From positions 1-64,000 of the IMG/VR virus record IMGVR_UViG_3300029513_000230: a DNA stretch of 64,000 bases, one strand, 5' to 3'. The notes below the pieces were generated by a model. It saw only the letters and a list, made by a program, of their open reading frames with translations. It searched no databases and was not told the origin of the DNA. The DNA is from a virus. Position numbers and translations under genes: made by a program. Shown here piece by piece: positions 1 to 34,000 of this stretch (the first letter of the stretch is position 1; each line of letters opens with the position of its first letter).

Positions 1-3000
1 TTAATATTCTCCCACTGATACTATTTGTCCAATGTGGTTAATTCGGATCTTGACAACACTATTACCAAAAGAAAGTGTTTTATATTGTTTATAAGCAATA
101 TCTTTCAACTCTTTCATATCTTTCACTGTTGTTTCCAAATGATGTCTAAATTTATAATCTCGAACAACATTATTTCCATACATAACTTTTGACATAGTCT
201 GCACCCTAAATAAATTCGGACTAATCATTGCATAATTATCCGGATTCAACAAATCCACCTCCTTCGGATTGAAGCCTGTCTTTTCATTCGGGAACACGAA
301 ATATTCATTCTGCTTCATGCTAAACAAAAATTGCCAACCTTCACTTTTTCTGTAATCCTTATCAATAATAGGAAGTCCTAAATTAGCCCGTGTTACAGCC
401 TCAAAGAAGGGGACAACCACCTCGTCCAGTTCATACATCAGATTACCATCCTCATCAAACGTCACCTGTCCTTTCTTGTCTAAAACAGGTTTACGATAAA
501 TAGCCACATGATGGTTGTTTCCGGTATTTACAAAATCCACAGGGATTTGTTTTCCATTTTCATCCCATATCGGATTCCCATTCTTATCTTTCTTCACGTG
601 TATCGATTGGGCATTATTGATTCCTCGGATGCTAACCCGCTTGATACTTATCCCCTTTTCCTTATTCAGCCATATCGGATTTTCCCAAAAATTAACAAAT
701 GCCTTTTTGGGATCTCCACCGTATTCTTTCAAACGCCGTTCTAAAATAGCACGTACCTTTACATCAACTACTTTATCCACATTCAAAGCAGGATCGACCG
801 GTTTTCGGATAGTATAAATAGTTTCAAATTCAACTGTTTGTACCTTCTCCGGAACTCGTATGGTCTGATACTTATCAGCATAAAGCGGATTCTTTTCCAA
901 TGCATTTTTTCCTGTAAATGCTTTCTTTGGATCATTACCGAATGTTTCCAACCGTTTAAGTAAGGCATTTCGATAAGCCCGTTTACTCACAGTCGCTATT
1001 TTAGCCGCATCAAAAGAAGCATTCACCTTTTCTATTTTTGTCACATATTGTTTGTGACTACCATAAACCGTTTCCAAATGCAACTGACCTCGCGGAGTTT
1101 GCTGTATCTTCGTATTTTCACCCTTTCTCTTTTTTGTTCGATTAACATTGACAGTCACCACCTTGTTCTTAGCTTTAATAGATACCAGCAGTTTTTCCAA
1201 ATGCTGTTTGGCTTCTATCCGGAATTGCTCCAATGGAATAGGAGGCAAAGCTCTTCCTTTGTCAAAATAACGGGTCTTGATACCTATTATATTCGTATGG
1301 TTTCTATTGCCTGAATCTTGTGCCGCATTTTTATTATTGAAATACTGAATAAACGCATCCTTTGTAAAAGCTACCGTCAGCGCATCCATCGCATGATGCC
1401 GATGGTCATTCCTTTTTGTCCAATCCTTTATTCTTTTGATTTTTCTTCCGTCCTTATCTTCGTATGTTTCCACAAAACCCAAGGCTTCATATTTAGGCAG
1501 GTTCAGTTCTTTCATTACATCCACCAATTGCCAGTCTTCACGCAATTGATCTGTAATGGAACCGGTAGTTGCCACTACTCTACGGCAGATTTCGTTCAAC
1601 ATAGCGAGTGCTTTTTTCGCTATATATTGTGTATTTCTCAAATCCCTATCAATGAAACCATCCGGTATATCCTTCTGTTCCATTTTCAATTTCCGAAGTT
1701 TCGCCTTTTTGTCATTGAACAAGCTTTCGCAACGATTTATATATTGTTGCAAGCCTTCTTCTCCATATTTTTCTTTTACAAAATCATAAGCGGTCTTATT
1801 TCCCTTTTCTATATTAATAGCCTTATACTCCAATGTCTTGTTAGATAAAGAATCATCAAAAAGACGGGATTGTGGAATAATATGTTCTATATCTATCTCC
1901 TTACTGAAAATCTTTTCTTTAGGTATATATTGATTGGAATACAATGTTTTATATCCATTATCTTTCAACTCTTCATAAAGTTTGTAACGGATAATATCAT
2001 TGCGGCTCACGTTCATCATACCAAATTCATCTTGCAACAATTTACGGATCTCCTCATGCTCACGGGTACTCTTTGCGATAGCTTTCGTCAGTTCCTCACG
2101 TTCTTTGGCACTCTTCTTTAATTCACGAGCCAATTCCACTCGGATTTCATCAGGTTTTCCATACGTATCAATGATTGTATTGATTACATTCACCATCTGA
2201 CTCAAAATCTTTTCAACCACCGGATTTCGGAGACTGTTTTTAGGAAGAACCTCCAGCTTGCCCTTTAAAACCTTATTTTCTATCTCCTCCTTAGTCAGTG
2301 AAGATTTGGAATGACGATAACCGGCATATTCACAAGCCACATCATACAGATTACCCTCTTTCAAATAGGGTAAAATCCTTTTGATGGCTTTCGCGCTCAA
2401 ACTTCCGTAATCATCTTGAAACGAAAGACTGGCTAGCTCTACAGCATATTCTTTCTCAACTCCGCAAAGTTGCATGATCTTTTCAATCAGTTTGCCGTTA
2501 CCGGTCGACGTATTATCTCCTTCAAAAGAATACAACAGATGCCAAAGTCTGAAATAAGGTTGCATCTCGAGCTCTTTCCCCTCTTTGGTTAAGTCAATGG
2601 TAAACAGATTCGTATTCCAACCTAAATCGGTAAAGATAGTTCTTAGCTGTCCGATTATCTCATCTGCTGGTTTCTTAAAATCCAACGGTTCGTAGCCATA
2701 CTTTTCTATCATTTTGCTATAGGCAGAAAAGAGAGAAAACCCAGTACGATTTCCATCTATTTGTTTGAAGTTCAAATCCAATTCCTGTGGATTTTCAAAT
2801 AAGAGCTTCAACACATCTGCTTTCTTCATGTTTTCTTTTATCGCAAGTTCTCTTGCCAGTATTTCTTTTTCTTCTGGATACAAAGCCCTACTTTCGCTTG
2901 CCGACAAAGCATTTCTTTTCTTCTCTCTTCCCAATACCTTTATGTCATTCAATGTCTGCCATACCTTAAATTCCTGAAACAATGGATGCGAACGAGGTAT

Positions 3001-4275
3001 CACCTTGCATCCTATGACTTTGGTCTGTTTCTTTCCATCCTTTTCTACTACAATCTCCAACCTTTCAAACTCACAGAAACTAATCAAGCCTTTCTGACTT
3101 TTCAGACGTCGTTGGTAAAAGATGATCATATCGCGAATCTCTTTTTTCAATTCAGCTGTCAATTCCTTATGAAATTCTGCCTGCTTTTCCCAAATTCTAT
3201 CAAATTCATCCAAATAATCCTGCCGATAGAATACCATATTGCGCAAACTTGCATGGGGATTCTTGTCTAACTCAGCCATCTGATACTGTCCGACCGTTTG
3301 ATGATTAAAGTATAACACTTTGCTCCTATCACTAATGGCTCCCAAATAACCACTAGACGCATTTATCTGACCATTGATCTCTTGCAAGACTACGGCTATC
3401 TCTTCCAAACCTAATTGTTCAGTAAGAGCTTGCGCACGCCAACGATAATTTTCCTTTTTCAGTTCATACCCCTTAGTCGTCCGTTTAAGACCGACAAGTT
3501 TACATTCTTTTTCTATCGTTTCATTCTTTGCTTCTCTGTCATTCCAGCCAACCACTTCTTCTTTCCAAACAAAATAGTTAGCCAAGATAGCCCATGTCTG
3601 GCTTCTGTTTTTTCCTTTGATTTCTTCTTTGGCGGCATCACAGAAAACATCAGGATGAAATTGCTTTTGAACACTCCATATTCTATCCAACTCTTCTTGC
3701 AAATCAGAACGGTAAAAGTCTGGCAAAACTTTCTTGCCCGATTCAAGTAACTGCGAACAAAGTTGCCCCGGAGTCAAATCCTCCTCATACAGCTTTTTAG
3801 CAATCTCCATTCCATCAATCAAAACTCCATCTTCTTCCTTTTTTACCTTTCGACTACTTTTATATCCACGTTTTTTATTAATCATCAATAAGACACGGGA
3901 TAGTTCCTCTAAAGAAATCTCTTCTTCAGCAGCTTTAGCCCGTAAACGACAGGTTTCAAACGTAGTTCTGTTTCCTTGTTCCGAAAGGATAGTTTCGTCG
4001 GTAATAAAACCCAGCTCTTTCAAAAATTCAACCAACGCATCACGACGTAATTTATATCGCTGCAAATTACGGCGCATACTTCTTTTAAGAGTTCTTTCCG
4101 CATTTGTAGTGATACTTTTCCCTTTTTCAAAGTTCTGCGTTTCATCTACTGTCAAAGGATTTACTCTCACACCTAATCGGATGATTGACGAGACTTCCTC
4201 ATCTGTTTCAGCTTCGTTCACCAACGCCCACCCTATACTATTTGTCCCTAAATCCAAGCCTAAAATCCTTTTCAT
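1..4275 (-). CDS. cas9: Cas9 endonuclease, type II-C-like, complete (1424 aa)
   Basis: N-terminal RuvC-I motif ILGLDLGTNSIGWAL; HNH motif EIDIEHIIPQS...N; RuvC-III HHAMDALTVAF; length typical of Bacteroidetes Cas9. Stop codon sits at the window edge (1-3). Confidence 0.9.
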   Translation of the reverse strand: MKRILGLDLGTNSIGWALVNEAETDEEVSSIIRLGVRVNPLTVDETQNFEKGKSITTNAERTLKRSMRRNLQRYKLRRDALVEFLKELGFITDETILSEQGNRTTFETCRLRAKAAEEEISLEELSRVLLMINKKRGYKSSRKVKKEEDGVLIDGMEIAKKLYEEDLTPGQLCSQLLESGKKVLPDFYRSDLQEELDRIWSVQKQFHPDVFCDAAKEEIKGKNRSQTWAILANYFVWKEEVVGWNDREAKNETIEKECKLVGLKRTTKGYELKKENYRWRAQALTEQLGLEEIAVVLQEINGQINASSGYLGAISDRSKVLYFNHQTVGQYQMAELDKNPHASLRNMVFYRQDYLDEFDRIWEKQAEFHKELTAELKKEIRDMIIFYQRRLKSQKGLISFCEFERLEIVVEKDGKKQTKVIGCKVIPRSHPLFQEFKVWQTLNDIKVLGREKKRNALSASESRALYPEEKEILARELAIKENMKKADVLKLLFENPQELDLNFKQIDGNRTGFSLFSAYSKMIEKYGYEPLDFKKPADEIIGQLRTIFTDLGWNTNLFTIDLTKEGKELEMQPYFRLWHLLYSFEGDNTSTGNGKLIEKIMQLCGVEKEYAVELASLSFQDDYGSLSAKAIKRILPYLKEGNLYDVACEYAGYRHSKSSLTKEEIENKVLKGKLEVLPKNSLRNPVVEKILSQMVNVINTIIDTYGKPDEIRVELARELKKSAKEREELTKAIAKSTREHEEIRKLLQDEFGMMNVSRNDIIRYKLYEELKDNGYKTLYSNQYIPKEKIFSKEIDIEHIIPQSRLFDDSLSNKTLEYKAINIEKGNKTAYDFVKEKYGEEGLQQYINRCESLFNDKKAKLRKLKMEQKDIPDGFIDRDLRNTQYIAKKALAMLNEICRRVVATTGSITDQLREDWQLVDVMKELNLPKYEALGFVETYEDKDGRKIKRIKDWTKRNDHRHHAMDALTVAFTKDAFIQYFNNKNAAQDSGNRNHTNIIGIKTRYFDKGRALPPIPLEQFRIEAKQHLEKLLVSIKAKNKVVTVNVNRTKKRKGENTKIQQTPRGQLHLETVYGSHKQYVTKIEKVNASFDAAKIATVSKRAYRNALLKRLETFGNDPKKAFTGKNALEKNPLYADKYQTIRVPEKVQTVEFETIYTIRKPVDPALNVDKVVDVKVRAILERRLKEYGGDPKKAFVNFWENPIWLNKEKGISIKRVSIRGINNAQSIHVKKDKNGNPIWDENGKQIPVDFVNTGNNHHVAIYRKPVLDKKGQVTFDEDGNLMYELDEVVVPFFEAVTRANLGLPIIDKDYRKSEGWQFLFSMKQNEYFVFPNEKTGFNPKEVDLLNPDNYAMISPNLFRVQTMSKVMYGNNVVRDYKFRHHLETTVKDMKELKDIAYKQYKTLSFGNSVVKIRINHIGQIVSVGEY

Positions 4276-27393: not shown

Positions 27394-27864
27394 TTATTTA
27401 TCCACATCATCACCTTGTGGAATAGGTTCCTCTGTCAATACCTCGTATGAGCCGGTCTTTTCCGGGACCGGAAGATTGTAACGCAACAACGTCCTTAGTT
27501 CCTCCAAGTCATCGGTCTCGAACTCGACCTTTCCCTCAAACAGGGAAAGCCCGCCGTTTCTTATAGCGTCCTCCACCACCTTGTGCGCCAACTCCGGGAT
27601 AGCCTCATCGGGGATGCCTTGAAGGTACCGAGCCAACATCGGCTCAACTAATGAGGATGACAATCCGTCTAGCAATGGGGATATCTCCTTGGATATGCTC
27701 CACATGGGACTTACCCAACCCGTGGAGCGTAACTTAGCGTCTATGTTCGCTATGAAAGGAAGTTGTCCCAACCGAGTTCCCAAGAGACCTTGGATAGCGG
27801 GCTGTGCCCACTTATTGAGCACAGCCGCCAGTTTTTGAGCGTTAGAGTACATGGCCATCATCAA
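27394..27864 (-). CDS. hypothetical protein
   Basis: ORF only. Confidence 0.45.
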   Translation of the reverse strand: MMMAMYSNAQKLAAVLNKWAQPAIQGLLGTRLGQLPFIANIDAKLRSTGWVSPMWSISKEISPLLDGLSSSLVEPMLARYLQGIPDEAIPELAHKVVEDAIRNGGLSLFEGKVEFETDDLEELRTLLRYNLPVPEKTGSYEVLTEEPIPQGDDVDK

Positions 27865-28361
27865 TTACATCCGCAACATCCCGTATCACAAACCTTACGC
27901 TGCGGGATCACCAACTCGCTCAATGCCGCTAGATCCGCAATCTGCTGTTGCATGCACTTCAATGTAGCGGTGTTAGTCCCATTGTAAACGGCTTGGTTCA
28001 TGTTAATTGAGGCTTGTTCCTCCTTGTTCCTGTTGATGATTGTCAACAAGCGGTCATAAACATCCGCCAACTTTTGGTCAGTGTAAGTGTTGGATTTCAA
28101 CAAGGCGATCTCCGAGTCCTTAGCGGAAATCTTATCCATCATCCCAGCCTCATAGCGGGAAATAGGCCTGTCTTCGGATGTGATTACCTCAACCGGACCG
28201 CCATATCCAGCGTTCCTTACGTTGCCACAACCACCCAAAAGATTCCCGGCGTTCAATCCCAAGAAAGAAGCGATACCTGCGGAAGCTCCCACGGTGTTGT
28301 AATTACCTTGGCCTTGCCCGGTGACACTGTACTCCTCACCATTCATTCCTTTAATTCTCAT
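27861..28361 (-). CDS. hypothetical Gly-rich protein with C-terminal CDTGCCGCN
   Basis: Gly/Asn-rich N-terminal third; C-terminal Cys cluster. Confidence 0.45.
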   Translation of the reverse strand: MRIKGMNGEEYSVTGQGQGNYNTVGASAGIASFLGLNAGNLLGGCGNVRNAGYGGPVEVITSEDRPISRYEAGMMDKISAKDSEIALLKSNTYTDQKLADVYDRLLTIINRNKEEQASINMNQAVYNGTNTATLKCMQQQIADLAALSELVIPQRKVCDTGCCGCN

Positions 28362-28802
28362 AACCTAGATTTTTTTAATGATCATATCCGGGTTATCCCG
28401 GACACCACAAAAATCCACAGAAGTGCCTTGCTAAATAAATATCTCATTGCTAGCTTGTTGCGAGGTTGTTGCTAGTTCTTTGCGGAAGGGGATGAGACAA
28501 AAAAACGCCGCCAATTTGTATTGACGACGCTTTTACCTTTTAAGGGAGGCTTTATAATGATATGGAAAGGAGCTCTTCTCCTAATTTATGCAAGGCTTAT
28601 TTTTTATGGTTGGTTACTTTTTATATCTACCGGTTCCACCTGTTTCCAATACATGCATTGTAGCGTGGTTGGACTAGATATATGTTTTTTTCTATCTGAG
28701 TATTTATCGAAACTATTCCTTTCTAGGAATTCATCATACTCCTTAGCTTTTGGTTCATCTAAATTTTTCATATCATTCTATTTTATATAGCATGAAATAA
28801 TT

Positions 28803-29162
28803 TTATATGGTAGACAGGAACTCTGACAATGAATCCATGTCCGAAAATTCTTTAACCTCACTGTCCTCATGCATATTCCTCGGTTTATTTCTATTACCTT
28901 TTACTATTTTCATCATCAGATCTATAGAGTCGCTCTCATTCTCCATAGAGACCCTCACTTTATCCAAGGCCAAAGCCTCTATTGTATTGCATAACTCATC
29001 CGCAAATGATCGAGACATAAAATATACATCCTTAAAATCTATACGTACACATGGGCTATTCAAATCCTTAGCCCTCATATAGATTTTTTTAGCTTCTGTC
29101 CTAGAACGAAGCTCTCCCCTTATCAATTCTGATATCACAATTGTCTTTTCCATGATCTTCAT
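28803..29162 (-). CDS. STAS-like (DUF4325-type) protein
   Basis: 119 aa. Its size and a 4-bp overlap with an upstream GHKL-ATPase gene match the known DUF4325/HATPase pairing; the domain call itself rests on this context and on recalled family knowledge. Confidence 0.45.
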   Translation of the reverse strand: MKIMEKTIVISELIRGELRSRTEAKKIYMRAKDLNSPCVRIDFKDVYFMSRSFADELCNTIEALALDKVRVSMENESDSIDLMMKIVKGNRNKPRNMHEDSEVKEFSDMDSLSEFLSTI

Positions 29163-29659
29163 TCTAAATATTCATAAAAATTAAACATCCTTTCCTCTTT
29201 ATATGGTATCCTTAATGCCACTATAGTTCCATCCCATTTTATATAATCAGGAAGTCCTATATATGATGTCTCTTCCTCTGACATAAGATGAAACGCTTGC
29301 CCAGACAGCAAAAAATATGTTCCTCCAAGTCCCTTAGACAACATTCTCTTGCAAGTACTTATACCATAACCACGATTCTCGGTATCTGGTAAATTTTTAG
29401 TCGATATACCCTTTCCAGCGCTTTTTAAAGCCTCCACATCGTTAGTTATACCTCCCTTGCCAGACTTAACATAACTACCCAGTATACTTATACCATTATC
29501 CGCTATGCAAATGTCTATATAACTCTTTGACGGATAATACTGAGCAAATATATAACCAAATTCACTCTCTGAATGTTCAGATATATTGTCAATCGTCTCA
29601 GTCAGCATATAAGATAAAGCCTTTCTCAACTCTCCTTCAATATTTAATTGCCTTATCAT
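29159..29659 (-). CDS. GHKL/histidine-kinase-like ATPase (RsbW/SpoIIAB-like)
   Basis: TETIDNISEHS (N-box-like) and NRGYGISTCKRM (G-box-like) motifs; 166 aa. Confidence 0.5.
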   Translation of the reverse strand: MIRQLNIEGELRKALSYMLTETIDNISEHSESEFGYIFAQYYPSKSYIDICIADNGISILGSYVKSGKGGITNDVEALKSAGKGISTKNLPDTENRGYGISTCKRMLSKGLGGTYFLLSGQAFHLMSEEETSYIGLPDYIKWDGTIVALRIPYKEERMFNFYEYLE

Positions 29660-29670
29660 TATATTCTCTG

Positions 29671-30093
29671 CTACAGACAGTATATCGTTTTTATGCTATC
29701 CTTGCTTTTACATCCCGGAAACTTTATTATAGGAATATATTTTTTCATAGAAAAATATTCCATATAATTATGAAAATCACTAACACTGTCAGCTACTACA
29801 CCTCCTTCAAAATGAATAGAGTCCAGATAGCTTTTAACACTGTCCGATATATTCTTGCAAACCACATTCTTACCGCACTTATCTCTATAAAGCATAAGAG
29901 GCAATAAGAAAAATGGAGTCACAAATGCCGTATATTGGAAGTTCCATATGAAATCATCATCATCGGAATTCTCCATTTTCAGGATTATCCTGAATAGATG
30001 ATTGAAGGCTTCTCCTATCCTAATATCATTTACCGCATGTGGCATATATATTTCCATAATGAAACTTTTCGTATACAACAAAGCCTCTGCCAA
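29671..30093 (-). CDS. hypothetical protein
   Basis: ORF immediately upstream of the ATPase gene. Confidence 0.4.
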   Translation of the reverse strand: MAEALLYTKSFIMEIYMPHAVNDIRIGEAFNHLFRIILKMENSDDDDFIWNFQYTAFVTPFFLLPLMLYRDKCGKNVVCKNISDSVKSYLDSIHFEGGVVADSVSDFHNYMEYFSMKKYIPIIKFPGCKSKDSIKTIYCL

Positions 30094-30210
30094 GGCTGGT
30101 TACTTGACGAGGCTACAAAATCACCTTTTACGCCGCAAATGTCGCAAAAAATTTTGTTATATGAAAATTTTTTCATAGACAAATCACATGCCTTACAACA
30201 TAACGCACCC

Positions 30211-30507
30211 TCAGAGCGTACCGGATAGCTCCTCTTTGACGCTCTCCACCGTCCTTCTCAGATAGTAACTCCTCCTTATCCTGTCCGGATACAAGTTCCG
30301 CATCCGGTTGACGGCTTGCCTCGTCATTCCCGTCAGATCGGATATGATATTGTCGCTCAACTTGCGATCGGCCAGTATGGTTATAGCCACTCCCCGAGCG
30401 TCAACATTGCGCTCCTTGTTGTTGCTAAACATCATTACCGGATCGGTCCCGCACTCCTTGCAGACTGTCTCTATCACTTTTTTGTAAAAAATTTCCACCT
30501 TATTCAT
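30211..30507 (-). CDS. HTH-domain protein (DnaA-C/sigma-region-4-like)
   Basis: ...ISDLTGMTRQAVNRMRN... HTH. Confidence 0.4.
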   Translation of the reverse strand: MNKVEIFYKKVIETVCKECGTDPVMMFSNNKERNVDARGVAITILADRKLSDNIISDLTGMTRQAVNRMRNLYPDRIRRSYYLRRTVESVKEELSGTL

Positions 30508-30795
30508 AAACTTTTTATTTCGTGGTTTGTTTTACTATCAAGCCGGGCAAAAAAATGCACGGCAGAAAGACATATAAGAATCTTCCCGTCGTGCGTGGCA
30601 TGAAAAAATAATCAAACTTCCGATCCGATTATTTAGGGAAGATTCTTTTTCTTTATCCTCCCTTTCCGGCTCGTTCTCACGAAGTCACCATCAAACTAAT
30701 ATAAATTATCATGAACAAAAAACGTCAGCCCTTGTTATTCATATAACGCATTCATTCTATTATCAGAGGTTTCCCGGGTGTGAGCCACGGAAGCC

Positions 30796-31263
30796 TCACC
30801 AAATCCTATAGAACCCGCCTATCCCTACATAGGGAGACAACCCGTGTTTACCGATCCCATAACCGGCTATCGCACCGATTCCCCATCTACGTGGGGTGAT
30901 CGTCTTGGTTATATACTCAGTCTTGCGATAAACCTCGATGTAATCAAGATTAGGCTTGTAACCCGAAATTGAAAGCCGGTAATCATCCGTCTTGTACTCC
31001 TTGCTGGTTATGGGTACCGGAACATATACAGGTTCCTTTACCGTGTCACCGTCCAACGTGATATAAACAGGGAACGGCTCCGGTATCGTCTGCACCAATG
31101 TCTCGTAAACAGGATACGGGATACTGTCATGGATCGTGTCGGTTATTAATACGGTATCGGATTTAGACACGACTTTATCAGTCACATCCCCCCGGATATG
31201 GTAGCCAGCCGTGAAACTGGCTACCAAGCACACTAGTATTAATATTATATGCCACGGCTTCAT
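30796..31263 (-). CDS. membrane-anchored protein (possible spanin/lysis accessory)
   Basis: N-terminal TM helix; sits downstream of the lysis genes. Confidence 0.35.
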   Translation of the reverse strand: MKPWHIILILVCLVASFTAGYHIRGDVTDKVVSKSDTVLITDTIHDSIPYPVYETLVQTIPEPFPVYITLDGDTVKEPVYVPVPITSKEYKTDDYRLSISGYKPNLDYIEVYRKTEYITKTITPRRWGIGAIAGYGIGKHGLSPYVGIGGFYRIW

Positions 31264-31647
31264 CTATCGAACGATCATCCAATCCGTAGCTAGCATATCC
31301 GTTTGAGATGCTAACCAGCCATTTACGATAGTATCATCAGCGGCTTTCATACACAAATAAGCCGTGAACTTGATCTTGTCCGTTTCCGAGTCACCATATT
31401 TATTAGCAACCCATTTCTTTACTGCATCAGGTAAGGATTTAACCTTATTCACGACCATGTCTGTAGACAAATAGTCTTCAGGACGCTGAAAGATAAACAT
31501 GCCTTTTCCATTCCATCCTTCACGACAAACCAACTCCCCTTTTTTGATAGCCTCTAAAGCTTCTCCAAATGTCATGTTTTTAGTTTTCATTTTATTTACG
31601 CTTACCTCTACAGCATTAGGTCTTGTTATTGTTAAAGTAAATTCCAC
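31264..31647 (-). CDS. DUF2829-family protein (Tad2-like)
   Basis: ...[29 protein letters not shown]...[21 protein letters not shown] matches the DUF2829 pattern (GW and W..sq.DllAeDW). Confidence 0.55.
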
Positions 31648-32042
31648 CCAGCTATAACGTCCGGCATTTCAGCCTCCCTACCATTCTCCACCTTGCTCAT
31701 CCCGCCCACGATCCGGATCATCTGCTCACGATCGTTGATGTTGATAGGATCATCAGCCGGGATACCAGCATAATCTGATACGGCCTTAATGTAAGCGTCC
31801 GTATCGTTCTCGTTTTCCGGTGCCCAGCGACCTATCATCTTGCGGATCGTGTCCAGCTTATAGTTCCGGTAATAGTTAGACAGGATCTTGAAGATCGCCC
31901 TGTAACCGTATGCCATCGATTTAAATTGCTTAAACGACTTGTCCTTGCTTGGGCGTATCTCACCTTGGAACAAGTCTCCGTTGATCCGGATGTTTCCCGG
32001 GTTGTTGTTCCGATACCCACGAGGTAAATTATTTTTCCCCAT
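31632..32042 (-). CDS. putative endolysin/peptidoglycan hydrolase
   Basis: [12 protein letters not shown] motif family seen in Bacteroidales phage lysins; adjacent to a holin. Confidence 0.45.
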
Positions 32043-32045
32043 ATT

Positions 32046-32522
32046 TTACTCTCCTTTCTTCTTTTTATTCATGGCATTGGATAAAGCGTTTGTCAAAGCG
32101 TCCTCCAAAACCTTTTGCGTTACAACCTTACCGATCATGTCGGCTGTCTTACTCGCCTGCCTCCTTTGTTTGGCGTCAGCCTTCTCCCAGATAGACCTAA
32201 CCTCCGTTATCAAGATAAATACGGTCACTATCGAGGATACGACCGGGACATTGGTCAAGAAAGGCAGATGGATAAATTCCCAGAACCGACACACGTAGCA
32301 AACCGAGTCTATCCCGCACGCTATACATACGCTACCAGCGTAAAGTATGAACTTACTGACCGTCCTACGCATGCCATACGAATTACGCTCCTCGCCCCTC
32401 AATTTAGCCTTGTAATAACCCGAGGCGAAATCCCACCCCATCGCCACCATAACGATGAACATCTCAAACACGACTACAGTCAGTAGCTCCCTCATACTGC
32501 AAATCATTTTAAAAAATTCCAT
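32046..32522 (-). CDS. holin-like membrane protein
   Basis: Three TM segments plus a charged C-terminal tail; immediately upstream of the lysin. Confidence 0.5.
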   Translation of the reverse strand: MEFFKMICSMRELLTVVVFEMFIVMVAMGWDFASGYYKAKLRGEERNSYGMRRTVSKFILYAGSVCIACGIDSVCYVCRFWEFIHLPFLTNVPVVSSIVTVFILITEVRSIWEKADAKQRRQASKTADMIGKVVTQKVLEDALTNALSNAMNKKKKGE

Positions 32523-32547: not shown

Positions 32548-32940
32548 TTATAAAACCACTATGCTCTCCTCCTCTCTCGCCGCCTCCCACTCGGCGAAAT
32601 CGCTATCCACACGGTCTTTCAACGCCTTCCTCTCGTTAAGGAACGTCTTATAAGACTCCACGTATGACAAGTCCAGTATGCCTAGCTGGGCGGCGTTGTA
32701 GTCGTTCAGCTTCTTTTGCTCCACGTCCTTGTCCCATAGGGCGTTGATACAGGCCTCCAATATCTTGTTGGCCGTCAACGTGGGCCATACCCTGACCTCG
32801 TTGTAACTATAGGAGATCACGGGGGCCATATCGTCACCCATCTCCCTTGTCTCCTCTCTAACGTCCCACCGGTACAGGTAGGAACCGTCACCGTCCCGCT
32901 CTATTCTAGGCGGCATTGTGTCGCTCCATGATCGCTTCAT
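32548..32940 (-). CDS. hypothetical acidic protein
   Basis: ORF; start overlaps the RT stop. Confidence 0.4.
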   Translation of the reverse strand: MKRSWSDTMPPRIERDGDGSYLYRWDVREETREMGDDMAPVISYSYNEVRVWPTLTANKILEACINALWDKDVEQKKLNDYNAAQLGILDLSYVESYKTFLNERKALKDRVDSDFAEWEAAREEESIVVL

Positions 32941-34000
32941 AAAACTCTGGTTTTAAAATTTTCTTAGCTAAATGCTTGCTATCGCTATCATATATCCAGC
33001 CCAGCCAACCGGCTAGACCTGCCTTGTATTCCGTTAAGGATATATTCGGGACTTTATTCAATCTAGCCGCCGCACGACATAGATTTTGCTTAGTCCTCTT
33101 CCTTATCCGTATATGCTCCTTGTAAAATACGAAACCCACGAAATCTACACCACGGCCGCTTTTATCCGATCTTCTCTCAGCGATCTTAAATATCTGGTAA
33201 TTCCCTTTCAGCTCCAACTTCAACACGGCCAATCTATCGATAAGCCACGGAAGTAATACGTTTCTCAAGAAACACTTATCATGATGGAAAAAAGTCATGT
33301 CATCCGCGTATCTGATATAATGCCTTATATCTATAATCTCCTTTATCTCGTGATCCAGATAGGCGAGATAAAGATTCGCAAGATATTGGCTAAGATAGTT
33401 CCCGATCGGAACGCCGGGAGCGGAATCGATGATCTCATCCAACAACATAAGCAAGCGATCGTCCTTGATCTTCTTCCGAGCGATGCCTTTTAACACCTCA
33501 TGGTCTATTGACGGATAGAATTTGCGGATATCAACCTTGAGGCAATAGACGGATTCACGATCGGACAAAGCCCGTCTTGTCCTCTTATACGCCTCCGTTA
33601 TTCCTCTTCCCTTGATACATGATGTCGTATCAGCCGTGAACACGGAAACCCATATAGGTTCCATGACGTTCATTATGGCATGATGCAATATCCTGTCCGG
33701 ATAATAAGGGAGCTTGAAGATGATCCTTTCTTTTGGCTCATAGATGGTATCAGTCCGGTACTTGGAAGTCTTGAACGTGCCATCCAGCAGAGACTTTAGC
33801 AAACGGCTTAGATTACCTTCTTTGTCCTTGTCAAACAACCTTATGCCGTATGAATCCTTCTTTCCCCTTCGGGCTTTCATGTCCGCAAGTATCAAGTTGT
33901 CCATATTCGCTATCTTATCAAATAAATTCCCTGTTCTCTTCATTTTATTGTCATTAATTTGCTTTTTATCATAGGGAGTCTTCGGTTTCCCTACCAACAC
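32906..34000 (-). CDS. DGR reverse transcriptase
   Basis: RT motifs: N-terminal RTGNLFDKIANMDNLILADMKARRGKK; motif 4 IGNYLSQYLANLYL (DGR-specific SQ); catalytic YIRYADDMTFF; thumb DFVGFVF. Confidence 0.85.
   Translation of the reverse strand: MLVGKPKTPYDKKQINDNKMKRTGNLFDKIANMDNLILADMKARRGKKDSYGIRLFDKDKEGNLSRLLKSLLDGTFKTSKYRTDTIYEPKERIIFKLPYYPDRILHHAIMNVMEPIWVSVFTADTTSCIKGRGITEAYKRTRRALSDRESVYCLKVDIRKFYPSIDHEVLKGIARKKIKDDRLLMLLDEIIDSAPGVPIGNYLSQYLANLYLAYLDHEIKEIIDIRHYIRYADDMTFFHHDKCFLRNVLLPWLIDRLAVLKLELKGNYQIFKIAERRSDKSGRGVDFVGFVFYKEHIRIRKRTKQNLCRAAARLNKVPNISLTEYKAGLAGWLGWIYDSDSKHLAKKILKPEFYEAIMERHNAA

What the first reader, a model, noticed from the sequence alone, without database searches (positions are those of the whole stretch)
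28803..30507. Accessory island with a GHKL-type ATPase and a STAS-like (DUF4325-type) partner inside the late arm
Four minus-strand genes form a compact unit: an HTH protein (30211-30507), a 140-aa unknown (29671-30093), a histidine-kinase-like ATPase (29159-29659, with N-box and G-box-like motifs) and a 119-aa STAS-like protein (28803-29162). The unit is inserted between the lysis genes and a GC-richer four-gene block, with long noncoding spacers on both sides (28362-28802 and 30508-30795). The ATPase/STAS genes overlap by 4 bp, which suggests a functional pair. The HATPase/DUF4325 pairing is known only from genomic co-occurrence, with no established function, and its location among accessory 'moron' genes in a prophage makes a superinfection-exclusion or abortive-infection role plausible. 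It could also be a partner-switching regulator of the host.
Basis: inference. Interest (0 to 1): 0.55.

Follow-up and report, generated by a model that had tools for sequence, protein, structure and literature searches.

The report
Prophage kinase–STAS switch cassette, kinase frameshifted
A Bacteroides prophage carries a two-gene cargo cassette, a DNA-damage-sensor-type protein kinase and its small STAS-domain substrate. It is a toxin-less relative of the VapKSC/CapKS immune switches described in 2026, and in this copy a one-base deletion breaks the kinase gene.

Summary
The four ORFs exist, but they are not four genes in one unit. The '140-aa unknown' and the 'ATPase' are halves of one 295-aa gene, split by loss of one A in an A6 tract (window 29688-29692). 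The gene is intact in 57 related contigs and in phage BF1-TP2. The protein has an N-terminal STAS-like domain and a SpoIIAB-type GHKL kinase domain. The overlapping 119-aa partner is a STAS protein with a Ser/Thr at the phospho-acceptor position and a conserved C-terminal helix. Both proteins are homologous to VapK and VapS of the VapKSC anti-phage toxin-antitoxin system (EMBO J 2026), so the HATPase/DUF4325 pairing is no longer function-unknown. This family lacks the VapC toxin and has no conserved third gene in 57-60 lineages. The pair is a real low-GC indel: 9 of 71 related phages have it. Sister phages carry HicAB or Panacea toxin-antitoxin pairs at the same site. The HTH gene is a backbone gene whose allele is linked to the cassette, and it is not a family component. 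Most likely function: an ssDNA/DNA-damage-triggered kinase–STAS switch acting as toxin-antitoxin-like or defence cargo, with an unidentified output, and probably inactive in this copy. It is a new variant of a known kind.

The parts
28460..30795 (-). Variable segment relative to cassette-less sister phages. It holds the upstream spacer, the HTH allele, the kinase gene, the STAS partner gene, a small ORF and the terminator. The low-GC core is about 28460-30200.
   Evidence: DNA homology to empty-site phages (L187, L188, L193, L203) resumes at window 28459 and at 30796. 9 of 71 related contigs carry the cassette. GC profile.
29159..30045 (-). Kinase gene: N-terminal STAS-like domain plus SpoIIAB-type GHKL Ser/Thr kinase domain. 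It encodes 295 aa when intact and is broken here by a 1-nt deletion. An alternative in-frame ATG lies at 30057.
   Evidence: BF1-TP2 gp43 is a single 888-nt CDS, and the alignment shows one missing A. The family profile scores 30.0 bits against VapK across both domains. The best solved fold match is SpoIIAB, TM 0.74-0.78 normalised to the target.
29688..29692 (-). Frameshift site: an A5 run here, A6 in intact relatives.
   Evidence: The run is A6 in 57 loci. It is A5 in the window, L148 and L150 (same lineage) and in L149 (a different haplotype). L147 carries a different frameshift, deletion of a G at gene position 222.
29671..30045 (-). It encodes the STAS-like sensor domain, including F41, which aligns with VapK F54.
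   Evidence: A clean profile of the small STAS partners hits residues ~2-77 of 42 of 94 kinases (best E = 6.9e-8), with 0 hits in shuffled controls. hhalign register against VapK. F41 is Phe in 84/94 and P44 is Pro in 93/94.
29159..29659 (-). It encodes the GHKL domain with the N-box (E150, N154, H158), G1 (D183-x-G185), the lid (S215-T-K217-N-L-P) and G2 (R225-G-Y-G228).
   Evidence: All of these residues are invariant in 94/94 relatives. HATPase_c scores 23.1 bits, below the gathering threshold.
28803..29162 (-). STAS-domain partner, VapS-like, 119 aa. It has a STAS core (residues 6-90), a basic disordered linker and a conserved C-terminal amphipathic helix (109-117). The motif is F48-x-[S/T]50-R51-S52-F53-x-D55-E56.
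   Evidence: AF2 model pLDDT 87.7. Foldseek hits are STAS domains at probability 1.0. The partner profile scores 15.2 bits against VapS, with a shuffle maximum of 10.5. Position 50 is S in 43, T in 41 and G in 1 of 85.
30211..30507 (-). 98-aa HTH protein with weak HTH_26 and Bac_DnaA_C matches. It is a backbone gene whose allele is linked to the cassette, and it is not a conserved component of the family.
   Evidence: Weak Pfam hits. Homologues occur only in this phage group. The allele is 97-100% identical in cassette-bearing phages and 32-54% identical in cassette-less ones. No similarity to the CapK HTH.
28604..28771 (-). Possible 55-aa small ORF between the partner gene and the terminator. 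Its status is unverified.
   Evidence: ORF. It is annotated as gp41 in BF1-TP2, with an in-frame 6-nt indel but dense substitutions. No Pfam hit.
28501..28534 (-). Intrinsic-terminator-like hairpin with a U-run, marking the 3' end of the cassette.
   Evidence: -18.2 kcal/mol, z = -5.6, and 0 of 200 shuffles fold as well. Backbone homology resumes about 40 nt downstream.

Best explanation
The locus is a horizontally acquired two-gene prophage cargo cassette. It encodes a VapK-like protein (an N-terminal STAS-like sensor domain fused to a SpoIIAB-type GHKL serine/threonine kinase) and a VapS-like STAS-domain substrate with a short C-terminal helix.

By homology to CapK/CapS and VapK/VapS, the intact system is inferred to work as follows. 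Single-stranded DNA produced by DNA damage or phage replication binds the groove between the STAS and GHKL domains, where the conserved F41 lies, and switches on the kinase. The kinase phosphorylates the partner at the N-terminus of STAS helix alpha-2 (S/T50, possibly S52). Phosphorylation releases the partner from whatever it holds.

Unlike VapKSC, no toxin is encoded next to the pair. The output must therefore be a protein encoded elsewhere, or the kinase itself. The cassette occupies a site where sister phages carry classical toxin-antitoxin pairs, so the most likely role is a toxin-antitoxin-like stress, abortive-infection or superinfection-exclusion module serving the lysogen.

In this window the kinase gene is interrupted by a 1-nt deletion between its two domains. 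This copy is therefore probably inactive, or leaves only the partner functional.

Shown here: the gene structure, the frameshift, the homology, the fold, residue conservation, indel status, the cargo hotspot and the absence of VapC. Inferred: ssDNA activation, phosphorylation of the partner, and the biological output.

The confidence of 0.6 is a blend: about 0.8 that this is a VapK/VapS-like kinase-substrate cassette, and about 0.45 that its role is toxin-antitoxin-like or defence.
For: Gene structure:
- One gene is split by a frameshift.

Architecture:
- The kinase N-terminal domain is a paralogue of the partner.
- The AF2 model of a full-length homologue is compact and two-domain (pLDDT 88, pTM 0.88).
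- The GHKL domain is closest to SpoIIAB (1TIL, 1TID) and to UsfX/RsbW (8IH8, 8JZT). The partner is closest to STAS domains including RsbS, RsbV and SpoIIAA.

Homology to the characterised system:
- The kinase profile scores 30.0 bits against VapK collinearly over both domains, and 22.6 bits against the CapK GHKL domain.
- The partner profile scores 15.2 bits against VapS. The maxima over 2000 shuffles are 7.7 and 10.5 bits.
- Single-sequence VapK recovers 80 of the kinase ORFs at E <= 0.01.
- VapS is itself DUF4325, 62.7 bits.

Functional residues:
- Catalytic residues are invariant in 94/94, and F41, which aligns with VapK F54, is Phe in 84/94.
- The partner has S or T at position 50 in 84 of 85 sequences. 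Both hhalign and hmmsearch place this position opposite VapS S48.

Strict pairing:
- The partner ORF lies immediately downstream, with a modal 4-bp overlap, in every locus where sequence is available.

Cargo status:
- 9 of 71 related phages carry the cassette.
- HicA toxins (69 and 30 bits) and a SocA/Panacea antitoxin (85 bits) sit at the same site in sister phages.
- The same pair occurs on the archaeal psiM100 'inserted fragment IFa', in the cargo region of Streptococcus prophages, and in a Francisella prophage.
- Some chromosomal copies abut AbiH, Hhe, PDC-S37, PDC-S01 or integrase genes.

Mechanism of the relatives: PMC13373217.
Against: - No effector is identified. VapC is absent from the window and from 180 loci, and no family is shared by more than 2 of 79 flanking ORFs from 57 lineages.
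- Sequence similarity to VapS is modest (15 bits). hhalign probabilities against single sequences are low (15-24%).
- In a gapless register from the DF..V motif, the canonical phospho-acceptor position (V+5, as in SpoIIAA S58, VapS S48 and CapS S54) falls on an invariant Arg (R51). The acceptor assignment to S/T50 or S52 is therefore uncertain.
- Many chromosomal copies sit between ordinary housekeeping genes and not in defence islands. Enrichment near defence genes was not tested against a background.
- PADLOC v2.0.0 has no model for the pair.
- This copy is frameshifted.
- There are no experimental data for this subfamily.
Confidence: 0.6

Rival explanations
1. In this window the cassette is simply a decaying pseudogene remnant with no present function. 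The frameshift is real and separates the sensor domain from the kinase domain.
For: The A5 run gives a premature stop at 29671-29673. The same allele is present in two other assemblies of the same lineage, L148 and L150. Independent disruptions of the kinase gene recur: L149, L147, 150-aa truncations in chromosomal Bacteroides copies (L165, L170, L171), and L185.
Against: It is a single mutation. Both fragment ORFs and the partner are otherwise intact and nearly identical to functional-looking alleles. The 3' fragment starts with its own ATG and could yield a free GHKL domain. A homopolymer miscall copied between databases is not excluded. Three kinase disruptions against none in the partner is not statistically significant given the gene lengths (about 2.5:1). 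This reading concerns only this copy and does not say what the family does.
Confidence: 0.5
2. The pair is a prophage regulatory sensor and not a defence or toxin-antitoxin module. An ssDNA-activated kinase phosphorylates the STAS protein to tune the lysogeny-lysis decision or late gene expression, possibly together with the linked HTH allele.
For: CapK/CapS is exactly such a DNA-damage-to-transcription switch (PMC13373217). The HTH allele is tightly linked to the cassette in this phage group: 97-100% identical in phages with it against 32-54% in phages without it. The cassette lies next to the lysis module. An AT-rich palindrome lies between the HTH gene and the kinase gene at 30146-30173.
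Against: The partner has no DNA-binding domain, unlike CapS. The HTH gene is absent from all other lineages that carry the pair and is unrelated to the CapK HTH. Most related phages do without the cassette, and many copies are chromosomal with no phage nearby. A terminator follows the pair, so it does not sit upstream of an operon that it could control.
Confidence: 0.15
3. Anti-defence decoy. The phage-encoded VapS-like protein neutralises host VapC-type toxins, or the phage kinase interferes with host CapKS/VapKSC signalling.
For: The cassette is near a Tad2-like (anti-Thoeris family) gene at 31264-31647. VapS is an antitoxin that blocks VapC. The partner gene is always retained even when the kinase gene is broken.
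Against: The pair also occurs in chromosomes with no phage context. Kinase and partner are strictly co-inherited, with catalytic residues invariant, which a simple decoy would not need. VapKSC operons are rare in Bacteroidales in the published list. There is no direct evidence.
Confidence: 0.08
4. Classical partner-switching module (RsbW/RsbV or SpoIIAB/SpoIIAA type) in which the kinase is an anti-sigma factor that controls a host or phage sigma factor.
For: The closest solved structures are SpoIIAB and RsbW/UsfX with their STAS antagonists. One JGI annotation of a homologue reads 'anti-sigma regulatory factor (Ser/Thr protein kinase)'.
Against: No sigma factor gene and no PP2C phosphatase gene recurs next to the pair in 57-60 lineages. 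The kinase carries a fused STAS-like sensor domain that SpoIIAB and RsbW lack. The cassette is mobile cargo found in phages of bacteria and archaea.
Confidence: 0.05

Closest known systems
VapKSC toxin-antitoxin / anti-phage system (VapK STAS-GHKL kinase, VapS STAS antitoxin, VapC PIN toxin; Chambers et al., EMBO J 2026, PMC13373217)
   Same: - The kinase has the same two-domain architecture, STAS-GHKL of about 300 aa with no HTH.
- The partner has the same layout, a STAS domain plus a short C-terminal helix, about 116-119 aa.
- The gene order is the same, kinase then partner.
- Sequence homology is detectable: 30.0 bits (kinase) and 15.2 bits (partner), against shuffle maxima of 7.7 and 10.5 bits.
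- The partner has a conserved Ser/Thr opposite VapS S48, and the kinase has an aromatic residue opposite VapK F54.
- VapS and relatives of the window's partner are Pfam DUF4325.
   Different: - There is no VapC or PIN gene, and no other conserved third gene.
- The subfamily has its own invariant partner motif, F-x-[ST]-R-S-F-x-D-E, with an invariant Arg at the canonical acceptor spacing.
- It has a distinctive kinase lid, S-T-K-N-L-P...E-N-R-G-Y-G-I.
- It is frequently carried by phages or proviruses.
- The output is unknown.
CapK/CapS transcriptional switch (same paper)
   Same: GHKL kinase with a preceding STAS domain, a STAS-domain substrate, and kinase-then-substrate gene order. The kinase profile scores 22.6 bits against the CapK GHKL domain.
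   Different: - CapK has a fused N-terminal HTH and CapS has a C-terminal wHTH. Both are absent here.
- CapKS sits upstream of an immune operon that it represses. Here a terminator and phage backbone genes follow the pair.
- The separate upstream HTH gene shows no similarity to the CapK HTH.
- The partner profile does not detect CapS.
SpoIIAB-SpoIIAA / RsbW-RsbV partner-switching modules
   Same: These are the best solved-structure matches for both proteins. The chemistry is a serine kinase with a STAS substrate, and the kinase lid motif is of the SpoIIAB type (my reading of the sequence).
   Different: No sigma factor and no phosphatase partner is encoded nearby. The kinase has an extra N-terminal STAS-like domain. 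The cassette is mobile two-gene cargo.
Type II toxin-antitoxin cargo of temperate phages (HicAB, PanA-toxin)
   Same: Two small overlapping genes with low GC, at the identical insertion site in sister phages. The pair has a patchy distribution and is scattered singly between housekeeping genes.
   Different: No toxin domain is recognisable. Neither toxicity nor neutralisation has been tested.

Membership tests
VapKSC | Kinase with a STAS domain followed by a GHKL kinase domain, lacking the CapK HTH | tested here: met
   The profile of 94 kinases scores 30.0 bits against VapK, hmm 18-281 aligned to residues 27-287. hhalign gives a collinear alignment over 247 columns. The STAS-partner profile hits the kinase N-terminal domain. 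AF2 model.
VapKSC | Partner is a STAS domain plus a short C-terminal region, with a conserved Ser/Thr on helix alpha-2 | tested here: met
   15.2 bits against VapS, shuffle maximum 10.5. S/T50 in 84 of 85 sequences. C-terminal helix 109-117 in the AF2 model. Caveat: the register around R51 is ambiguous.
VapKSC | Third gene encoding a VapC-like PIN nuclease toxin | tested here: not met
   tblastn and phmmer with VapC (from 9Z7O) give best E values of 0.15-0.48 in the window and 180 loci, while the positive control works. No family is shared by more than 2 of 79 flanking ORFs. Blast clustering finds no conserved neighbour in 60 lineages.
VapKSC | Conserved aromatic residue needed for ssDNA sensing (VapK F54, CapK W68) | tested here: met
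   F41 aligns with VapK F54 and is Phe in 84/94. ssDNA binding itself cannot be tested here.
VapKSC | Kinase activated by ssDNA; phosphorylation releases the partner; protects against phage | not testable with these tools
   Needs biochemistry and phage challenge.
CapK/CapS | N-terminal HTH fused to the kinase | tested here: not met
   The kinase starts directly with the STAS-like domain. The separate upstream HTH protein gives no BLASTP alignment to CapK residues 1-82.
CapK/CapS | Partner carries a C-terminal wHTH DNA-binding domain | tested here: not met
   The partner is 119 aa, with a STAS core, a disordered linker and a single helix. The partner profile gives no hit to CapS.
CapK/CapS | The pair sits immediately upstream of an immune operon that it regulates | tested here: not met
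   A terminator at 28501-28534 is followed by phage backbone genes. No downstream gene is conserved across lineages.
SpoIIAB/RsbW partner switching | SpoIIAB-type GHKL kinase fold and STAS antagonist fold | tested here: met
   Kinase: 1TIL_E at E = 3.6e-5 with TM(target) 0.74, 1TID_C with TM 0.78, plus 8IH8_C and 8JZT_B. Partner: RsbS, RsbV and SpoIIAA among the STAS hits at probability 0.92-1.0.
SpoIIAB/RsbW partner switching | Cognate sigma factor and PP2C phosphatase in the operon or neighbourhood | tested here: not met
   Neither appears among the recurrent neighbour families. Isolated occurrences several kb away in L003 and L173 belong to other clusters.
Pfam DUF4325 (PF14213) | Score at or above the gathering threshold of 23 bits | tested here: not met
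   The window partner scores 16.7 bits, E = 0.006. Subfamily and related members pass: psiM100 ORFC 29.4 bits, GBS prophage partner 41.7 bits, VapS 62.7 bits. psiM100 ORFC scores 62 bits against the window-family profile. This copy is therefore a divergent member by transitive homology.
Pfam HATPase_c (PF02518) | Score at or above the gathering threshold of 26.4 bits; N, G1 and G2 boxes present | tested here: inconclusive
   23.1 bits, below threshold; VapK itself scores 23.4 bits. The motifs are invariant in 94/94 and the fold is confirmed.
Type II toxin-antitoxin module | One product is toxic and the cognate partner neutralises it | not testable with these tools
   The support is only positional (the same site holds HicAB or PanA pairs) and distributional.

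The most novel reading that the evidence does not exclude
The two-gene STAS-GHKL kinase plus STAS partner cassette is a complete, self-contained system. It would be carried by temperate phages and proviruses of Bacteroidota, Firmicutes, Francisella and methanogenic archaea. In this reading, an ssDNA/DNA-damage-sensing kinase switch has one of two outputs. Either the kinase itself acts as a kinase-type toxin held in check by its STAS pseudo-substrate, or a conserved host protein is held by the partner's C-terminal helix. That would make it a previously undescribed kinase-based toxin-antitoxin or abortive-infection system, or a RecA-independent damage sensor for prophages.
Probability: 0.3. Interest if true: 0.75.

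Novelty: new variant of a known kind. Interest (0 to 1): 0.5.

Why it matters
CapKS and VapKSC were described only in 2026, as chromosomal regulators or triggers wired to an adjacent immune operon or toxin. This locus shows that the same sensor-kinase/STAS-substrate pair circulates widely as a stand-alone two-gene cassette with no adjacent effector. The family has at least 340 clusters at 50% identity with E <= 1e-30. The pair is often carried as phage cargo at toxin-antitoxin hotspots, and it reaches an archaeal provirus.

If the pair is functional on its own, the effector must be the kinase or a factor encoded elsewhere. That would extend the known repertoire of DNA-damage-sensing conflict modules. 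It would also give an experimentally tractable case, because near-isogenic Bacteroides phages exist with the intact cassette, with the frameshifted cassette, and without it.

For annotation, two corrections follow. 'DUF4325' partners of 'ATP-binding proteins' can now be read as VapS-like kinase substrates. The window's three ORFs (140 aa, 166 aa and 119 aa) should be annotated as one frameshifted kinase gene plus its partner.

Tried and rejected
- PADLOC v2.0.0 on the four ORFs gave only weak GHKL matches, to a DrmA N-terminal segment and to MTase_II, and nothing for the partner or the HTH protein.
- NCBIfam (June 2026) has no model for the kinase, the partner, the HTH protein, VapK or VapS.
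- Sequence search of PDB chains with both family profiles gave nothing meaningful. The Foldseek PDB copy ends on 2026-04-08 and lacks 9Z71-9Z73 and 9Z7O, so no direct structural match to CapS or VapS was possible.
- My first 'clean' STAS-against-kinase profile test was contaminated by kinase ORFs and was discarded. It was redone with length filters.
- I tested whether the upstream HTH gene is a split-off CapK HTH. It is not: no similarity.
- I tested whether the 165-166-aa database homologues (P0023, P0030) represent a conserved functional split. They do not. One is cut by a contig end, and in the other the N-terminal domain is replaced by a helicase fragment.
- I considered programmed frameshifting or transcriptional slippage at the A5/A6 run and think it unlikely. 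The run is short and the heptamer is not a canonical slippery site (my reading of the sequence). It is not excluded.
- Promoter scans were uninformative. Sigma-70-type sites are at chance level, and there is no Bacteroides-type TTTG...TAnnTTTG match in the region.
- Literature searches for DUF4325, STAS plus prophage plus kinase, and VapKSC/CapK found no description of a two-gene or phage-borne version. The BF1-TP2 phage is not mentioned in the one Bacteroidaceae phage collection paper checked. A Francisella MtvS paper was irrelevant.
- Enrichment near defence genes could not be quantified against a genomic background. Only raw counts of defence-type neighbours were obtained.
Full report
**1. 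Observation.** The four minus-strand ORFs are at the stated coordinates. The ATPase and STAS ORFs overlap by 4 bp. The segment from about 28400 to 30200 has GC 0.33-0.37, against 0.46-0.52 in the flanks. The upstream neighbours are a lysis block: a holin at 32046-32522, an endolysin-like gene at 31632-32042, a Tad2-like/DUF2829 gene at 31264-31647 and a DUF6808 gene at 30796-31263. The element is a prophage. Window 6225-9000 matches the repressor region of Bacteroides phage BF1-TP2 (PQ571263.1, host B. fragilis). Window 1 to about 6224 does not match that phage and carries a Cas9-like gene.

**2. The '140-aa unknown' and the 'ATPase' are one frameshifted gene.**
- PHROG 3364 (304 positions) matches the 140-aa ORF at positions 6-102 and the 166-aa ORF at positions 144-294.
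- BF1-TP2 is 96.3% identical over the island and has a single 295-aa 'ATP-binding protein' followed by a 'DUF4325 domain-containing protein'.
- Base-by-base alignment shows that the window lacks one A of an A6 run, at 29688-29692.
- Among related IMG/VR contigs the run is A6 in 57. It is A5 in L148 and L150, which are 99.9% identical to the window and so belong to the same lineage. It is also A5 in L149, which has a different haplotype. L147 carries a different frameshift, deletion of a G at gene position 222.
- This gives at least three independent disruptions of the kinase gene, and none of the partner gene. Given the gene lengths, that difference is not statistically significant.
- N-terminally truncated kinase genes with an intact partner also occur in chromosomal Bacteroides copies (150 aa against 302 aa) and in L185.

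**3. What the proteins are.**
- *Kinase motifs.* Full-length homologues are about 280-300 aa. The GHKL motifs are invariant in 94/94 non-redundant relatives: E150, N154 and H158 (N-box), D183-x-G185 (G1), S215-x-K217 (lid) and R225-G-Y-G228 (G2).
- *Kinase N-terminal domain.* A profile built only from 85 small partners hits residues ~2-77 of 42 of 94 kinases in register. The best E is 6.9e-8, and shuffled controls give no hits. An earlier contaminated test was discarded. The kinase therefore carries an N-terminal STAS-like domain that is paralogous to its partner.
- *Kinase structure.* AlphaFold2 on a full-length homologue gives a compact two-domain model (pLDDT 88.3, pTM 0.88). Its best solved-structure matches are SpoIIAB (1TIL_E at E = 3.6e-5 with TM(target) 0.74; 1TID_C with TM 0.78) and the anti-sigma kinases in 8IH8 and 8JZT.
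- *Partner structure.* The window's partner models as a STAS core (residues 6-90), a disordered basic linker and a C-terminal helix at 109-117 (pLDDT 87.7). Its best matches are STAS domains including RsbS, RsbV and SpoIIAA. Probabilities are up to 1.0 and TM scores 0.45-0.58, but E-values are weak.
- *Pfam thresholds.* Scores for this copy are below the gathering thresholds: DUF4325 16.7 against 23 bits, HATPase_c 23.1 against 26.4 bits.

**4. The pairing, and the absence of a third gene.** The partner ORF lies immediately downstream on the same strand, with a gap of -35 to +28 nt and a mode of -4. This holds in 154 of 161 loci as first scored. The rest are contig ends, or in the case of L038 an ORF that my filter missed. 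Clustering the neighbours of 60 kinase lineages (80% identity clusters) found no conserved third gene. The best candidate was an integrase-like protein in 8 lineages. A Pfam scan of 79 closely flanking same-strand ORFs from 57 lineage representatives found no family in more than 2 of them. The HTH protein has homologues only in the window's own phage group.

**5. Comparison with what is known.** A literature search found Chambers et al., EMBO J 2026 (PMC13373217).
- CapK is an HTH-STAS-GHKL kinase. It is activated by ssDNA and phosphorylates CapS, a STAS-wHTH repressor, on a serine of helix alpha-2. This de-represses a downstream immune operon.
- In VapKSC, VapK (STAS-GHKL) is proposed to phosphorylate VapS, and a phosphomimetic VapS no longer binds or neutralises the PIN toxin VapC. 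VapS is a STAS domain plus a short C-terminal helix, 116 aa. The operon gives about 2 logs of protection against one phage.
- I transcribed VapK, VapS, VapC, CapK and CapS from the paper's deposited files.
- VapS is a clear DUF4325 protein (62.7 bits). This also explains the 'PIN.4 coupled to DUF4325' note in PMC5499597.
- The kinase-family profile scores 30.0 bits against VapK over both domains and 22.6 bits against the CapK GHKL domain. The partner profile scores 15.2 bits against VapS and nothing against CapS. The maxima over 2000 shuffles are 7.7 and 10.5 bits.
- Single-sequence VapK recovers 80 of the kinase ORFs at E <= 0.01.
- hhalign and hmmsearch both place partner position 50 opposite VapS S48. 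Position 50 is S in 43, T in 41 and G in 1 of 85 sequences. They also place kinase F41, which is Phe in 84/94, opposite VapK F54, the residue needed for protection.
- One caveat applies. In a gapless register from the DF..V motif, the canonical V+5 acceptor position falls on the invariant R51, flanked by S/T50 and the invariant S52. The exact acceptor is therefore unresolved.
- VapC is absent. The best E values are 0.15-0.48 in the window and 180 loci.
- CapK's fused HTH and CapS's wHTH are also absent, and the separate HTH gene is unrelated to the CapK HTH.
- The published datasets collected only operons with a vapC within 10 kb. The paper does not describe two-gene or phage-borne forms. No other paper in the library does either.

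**6. The cassette is cargo at a toxin-antitoxin hotspot.**
- I used the downstream flank gene (27861-28361) to fetch 80 related viral contigs. Of the 71 with enough upstream sequence, only 9 carry the kinase and partner genes.
- DNA homology to empty-site phages resumes at window 28459, about 40 nt beyond a strong terminator at 28501-28534 (-18.2 kcal/mol, z = -5.6). On the other side it resumes at 30796.
- In cassette-less phages a positional HTH homologue that is only 32-54% identical abuts the flank gene, with a gap of 94-128 nt. In all 9 cassette-bearing contigs the HTH allele is 97-100% identical to the window's.
- The HTH gene is therefore a backbone gene, with backbone-like GC, and its allele is linked to the cassette.
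- At the same site other sister phages carry different low-GC two-gene fillers. These include HicA toxins (69.2 and 30.1 bits), each with an adjacent 133-134-aa ORF that has no Pfam hit and that I take to be HicB-like. One phage has a SocA/Panacea antitoxin (85.3 bits) with a 139-aa partner.

**7. Wider distribution.**
- The family has 340 clusters at 50% identity with E <= 1e-30, and 1190 with E <= 1e-10. Nearly all are about 295-310 aa.
- Chromosomal copies in Bacteroidales are two-gene cassettes in several kinds of setting. Some lie between unrelated housekeeping genes, some at the edge of capsule loci, some next to integrases and some in prophages.
- Some directly abut AbiH, Hhe, PDC-S37, PDC-S01, PDC-S22 or Gabija-like genes. 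This was not tested against a background.
- The pair also sits on the 2.8-kb 'inserted fragment IFa' of the archaeal provirus psiM100. There ORFB scores 109.7 bits and ORFC 62 bits against the window-family profiles, and ORFC passes DUF4325 at 29.4 bits.
- It occurs in the cargo region of Streptococcus prophages, after the lysis genes and before paratox, where the partner scores 41.7 bits for DUF4325. A kinase homologue is in a Coprococcus phage, and a 293-aa ORF followed by a DUF4325 ORF lies in Francisella prophage KIRK.

**8. Interpretation.** The best-supported reading is a VapC-less VapK/VapS-like kinase-substrate switch carried as prophage cargo.
- Shown: the gene structure, the homology, the fold, the conservation of catalytic and acceptor-site residues, the strict pairing, the indel status, the hotspot and the absence of a toxin encoded alongside.
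- Inferred from the characterised relatives: activation by ssDNA, phosphorylation of the partner and release from a target.
- Unknown: the output. The positional equivalence with HicAB and Panacea pairs, and the scattered single-cassette distribution, favour a toxin-antitoxin-like or defence role. In that case the effector would be either the kinase itself or a target encoded elsewhere and held by the partner's conserved C-terminal helix.
- In this window the frameshift most likely inactivates the kinase.
- Rivals are a prophage regulatory sensor, an anti-defence decoy and a classical sigma-factor partner switch. I rate each less likely, for the reasons given under each.

**9. Verdict.** Novelty: a new variant of a known kind. 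Interest is moderate, 0.5.

Noticed in passing
window 1-4275 (-): A 1424-aa ORF with RuvC_III (E = 1e-53) and HNH_4 (E = 1.6e-17) domains, so Cas9-like. Window 1 to about 6224 does not match phage BF1-TP2, so the prophage appears to be integrated next to a type II CRISPR-Cas gene. Whether Cas9 is host-borne or element-borne was not resolved.
   Followed up: partly
window 32906-34000 (-), with 32548-32940 (-) downstream: A reverse transcriptase (RVT_1, E = 8e-13; YADD motif), probably part of a diversity-generating retroelement, directly upstream of the lysis genes. BF1-TP2 has a 3.6-kb hypothetical gene at the corresponding place. Template and variable repeats were not searched for.
   Followed up: no
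window 31264-31647 (-): A Tad2-like / DUF2829 protein (PF11195, E = 3.7e-24), a member of the Thoeris anti-defence family, embedded in the lysis block between the endolysin-like gene and the DUF6808 gene.
   Followed up: no
L202, L213, L216, L220, L249 (between the HTH homologue and the homologue of window 27861-28361): The insertion site is a cargo hotspot. Sister phages carry HicA toxin (with a HicB-like ORF) or a SocA/Panacea antitoxin plus a 139-aa putative toxin at the position of the kinase-STAS cassette. L202 combines the window-type HTH allele (95% identical) with a HicAB filler.
   Followed up: yes
L181 (psiM100, NC_002628.3 7090-8221): The 'inserted fragment IFa' that is annotated in the archaeal provirus psiM100 carries a close member of the same kinase-partner subfamily (ORFB and ORFC; the chromosomal homologues are MTH315 and MTH316). 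This implies transfer between domains of life.
   Followed up: partly
L165, L170, L171 against L166-L169 (chromosomal Bacteroides copies at the edge of capsule loci): Within one species-level locus the kinase gene is either 302 aa or N-terminally truncated to 150 aa by a deletion of about 470 bp. The partner (117 aa) is identical in both. This is a second case of loss of the sensor domain with retention of the GHKL domain and the partner.
   Followed up: partly
window 29159-29659 product: The GHKL domain gives a PADLOC hit to positions 127-249 of a 1750-position DrmA (DISARM) model (E = 1.6e-7) and to an MTase_II model. This suggests that some defence proteins carry this type of GHKL module at their N-terminus.
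   Followed up: no
window 30146-30173: An AT-rich perfect inverted repeat, AAAAAATTTT-N8-AAAATTTTTT, lies between the HTH gene and the kinase start. It could be an operator or simply AT-rich chance.
   Followed up: no
window 27861-28361 (-): The 166-aa backbone protein just downstream of the cassette ends in a Cys-rich tail (…CDTGCCGCN) and has no significant family match. It is 83-100% conserved across at least 80 related phage contigs.
   Followed up: no
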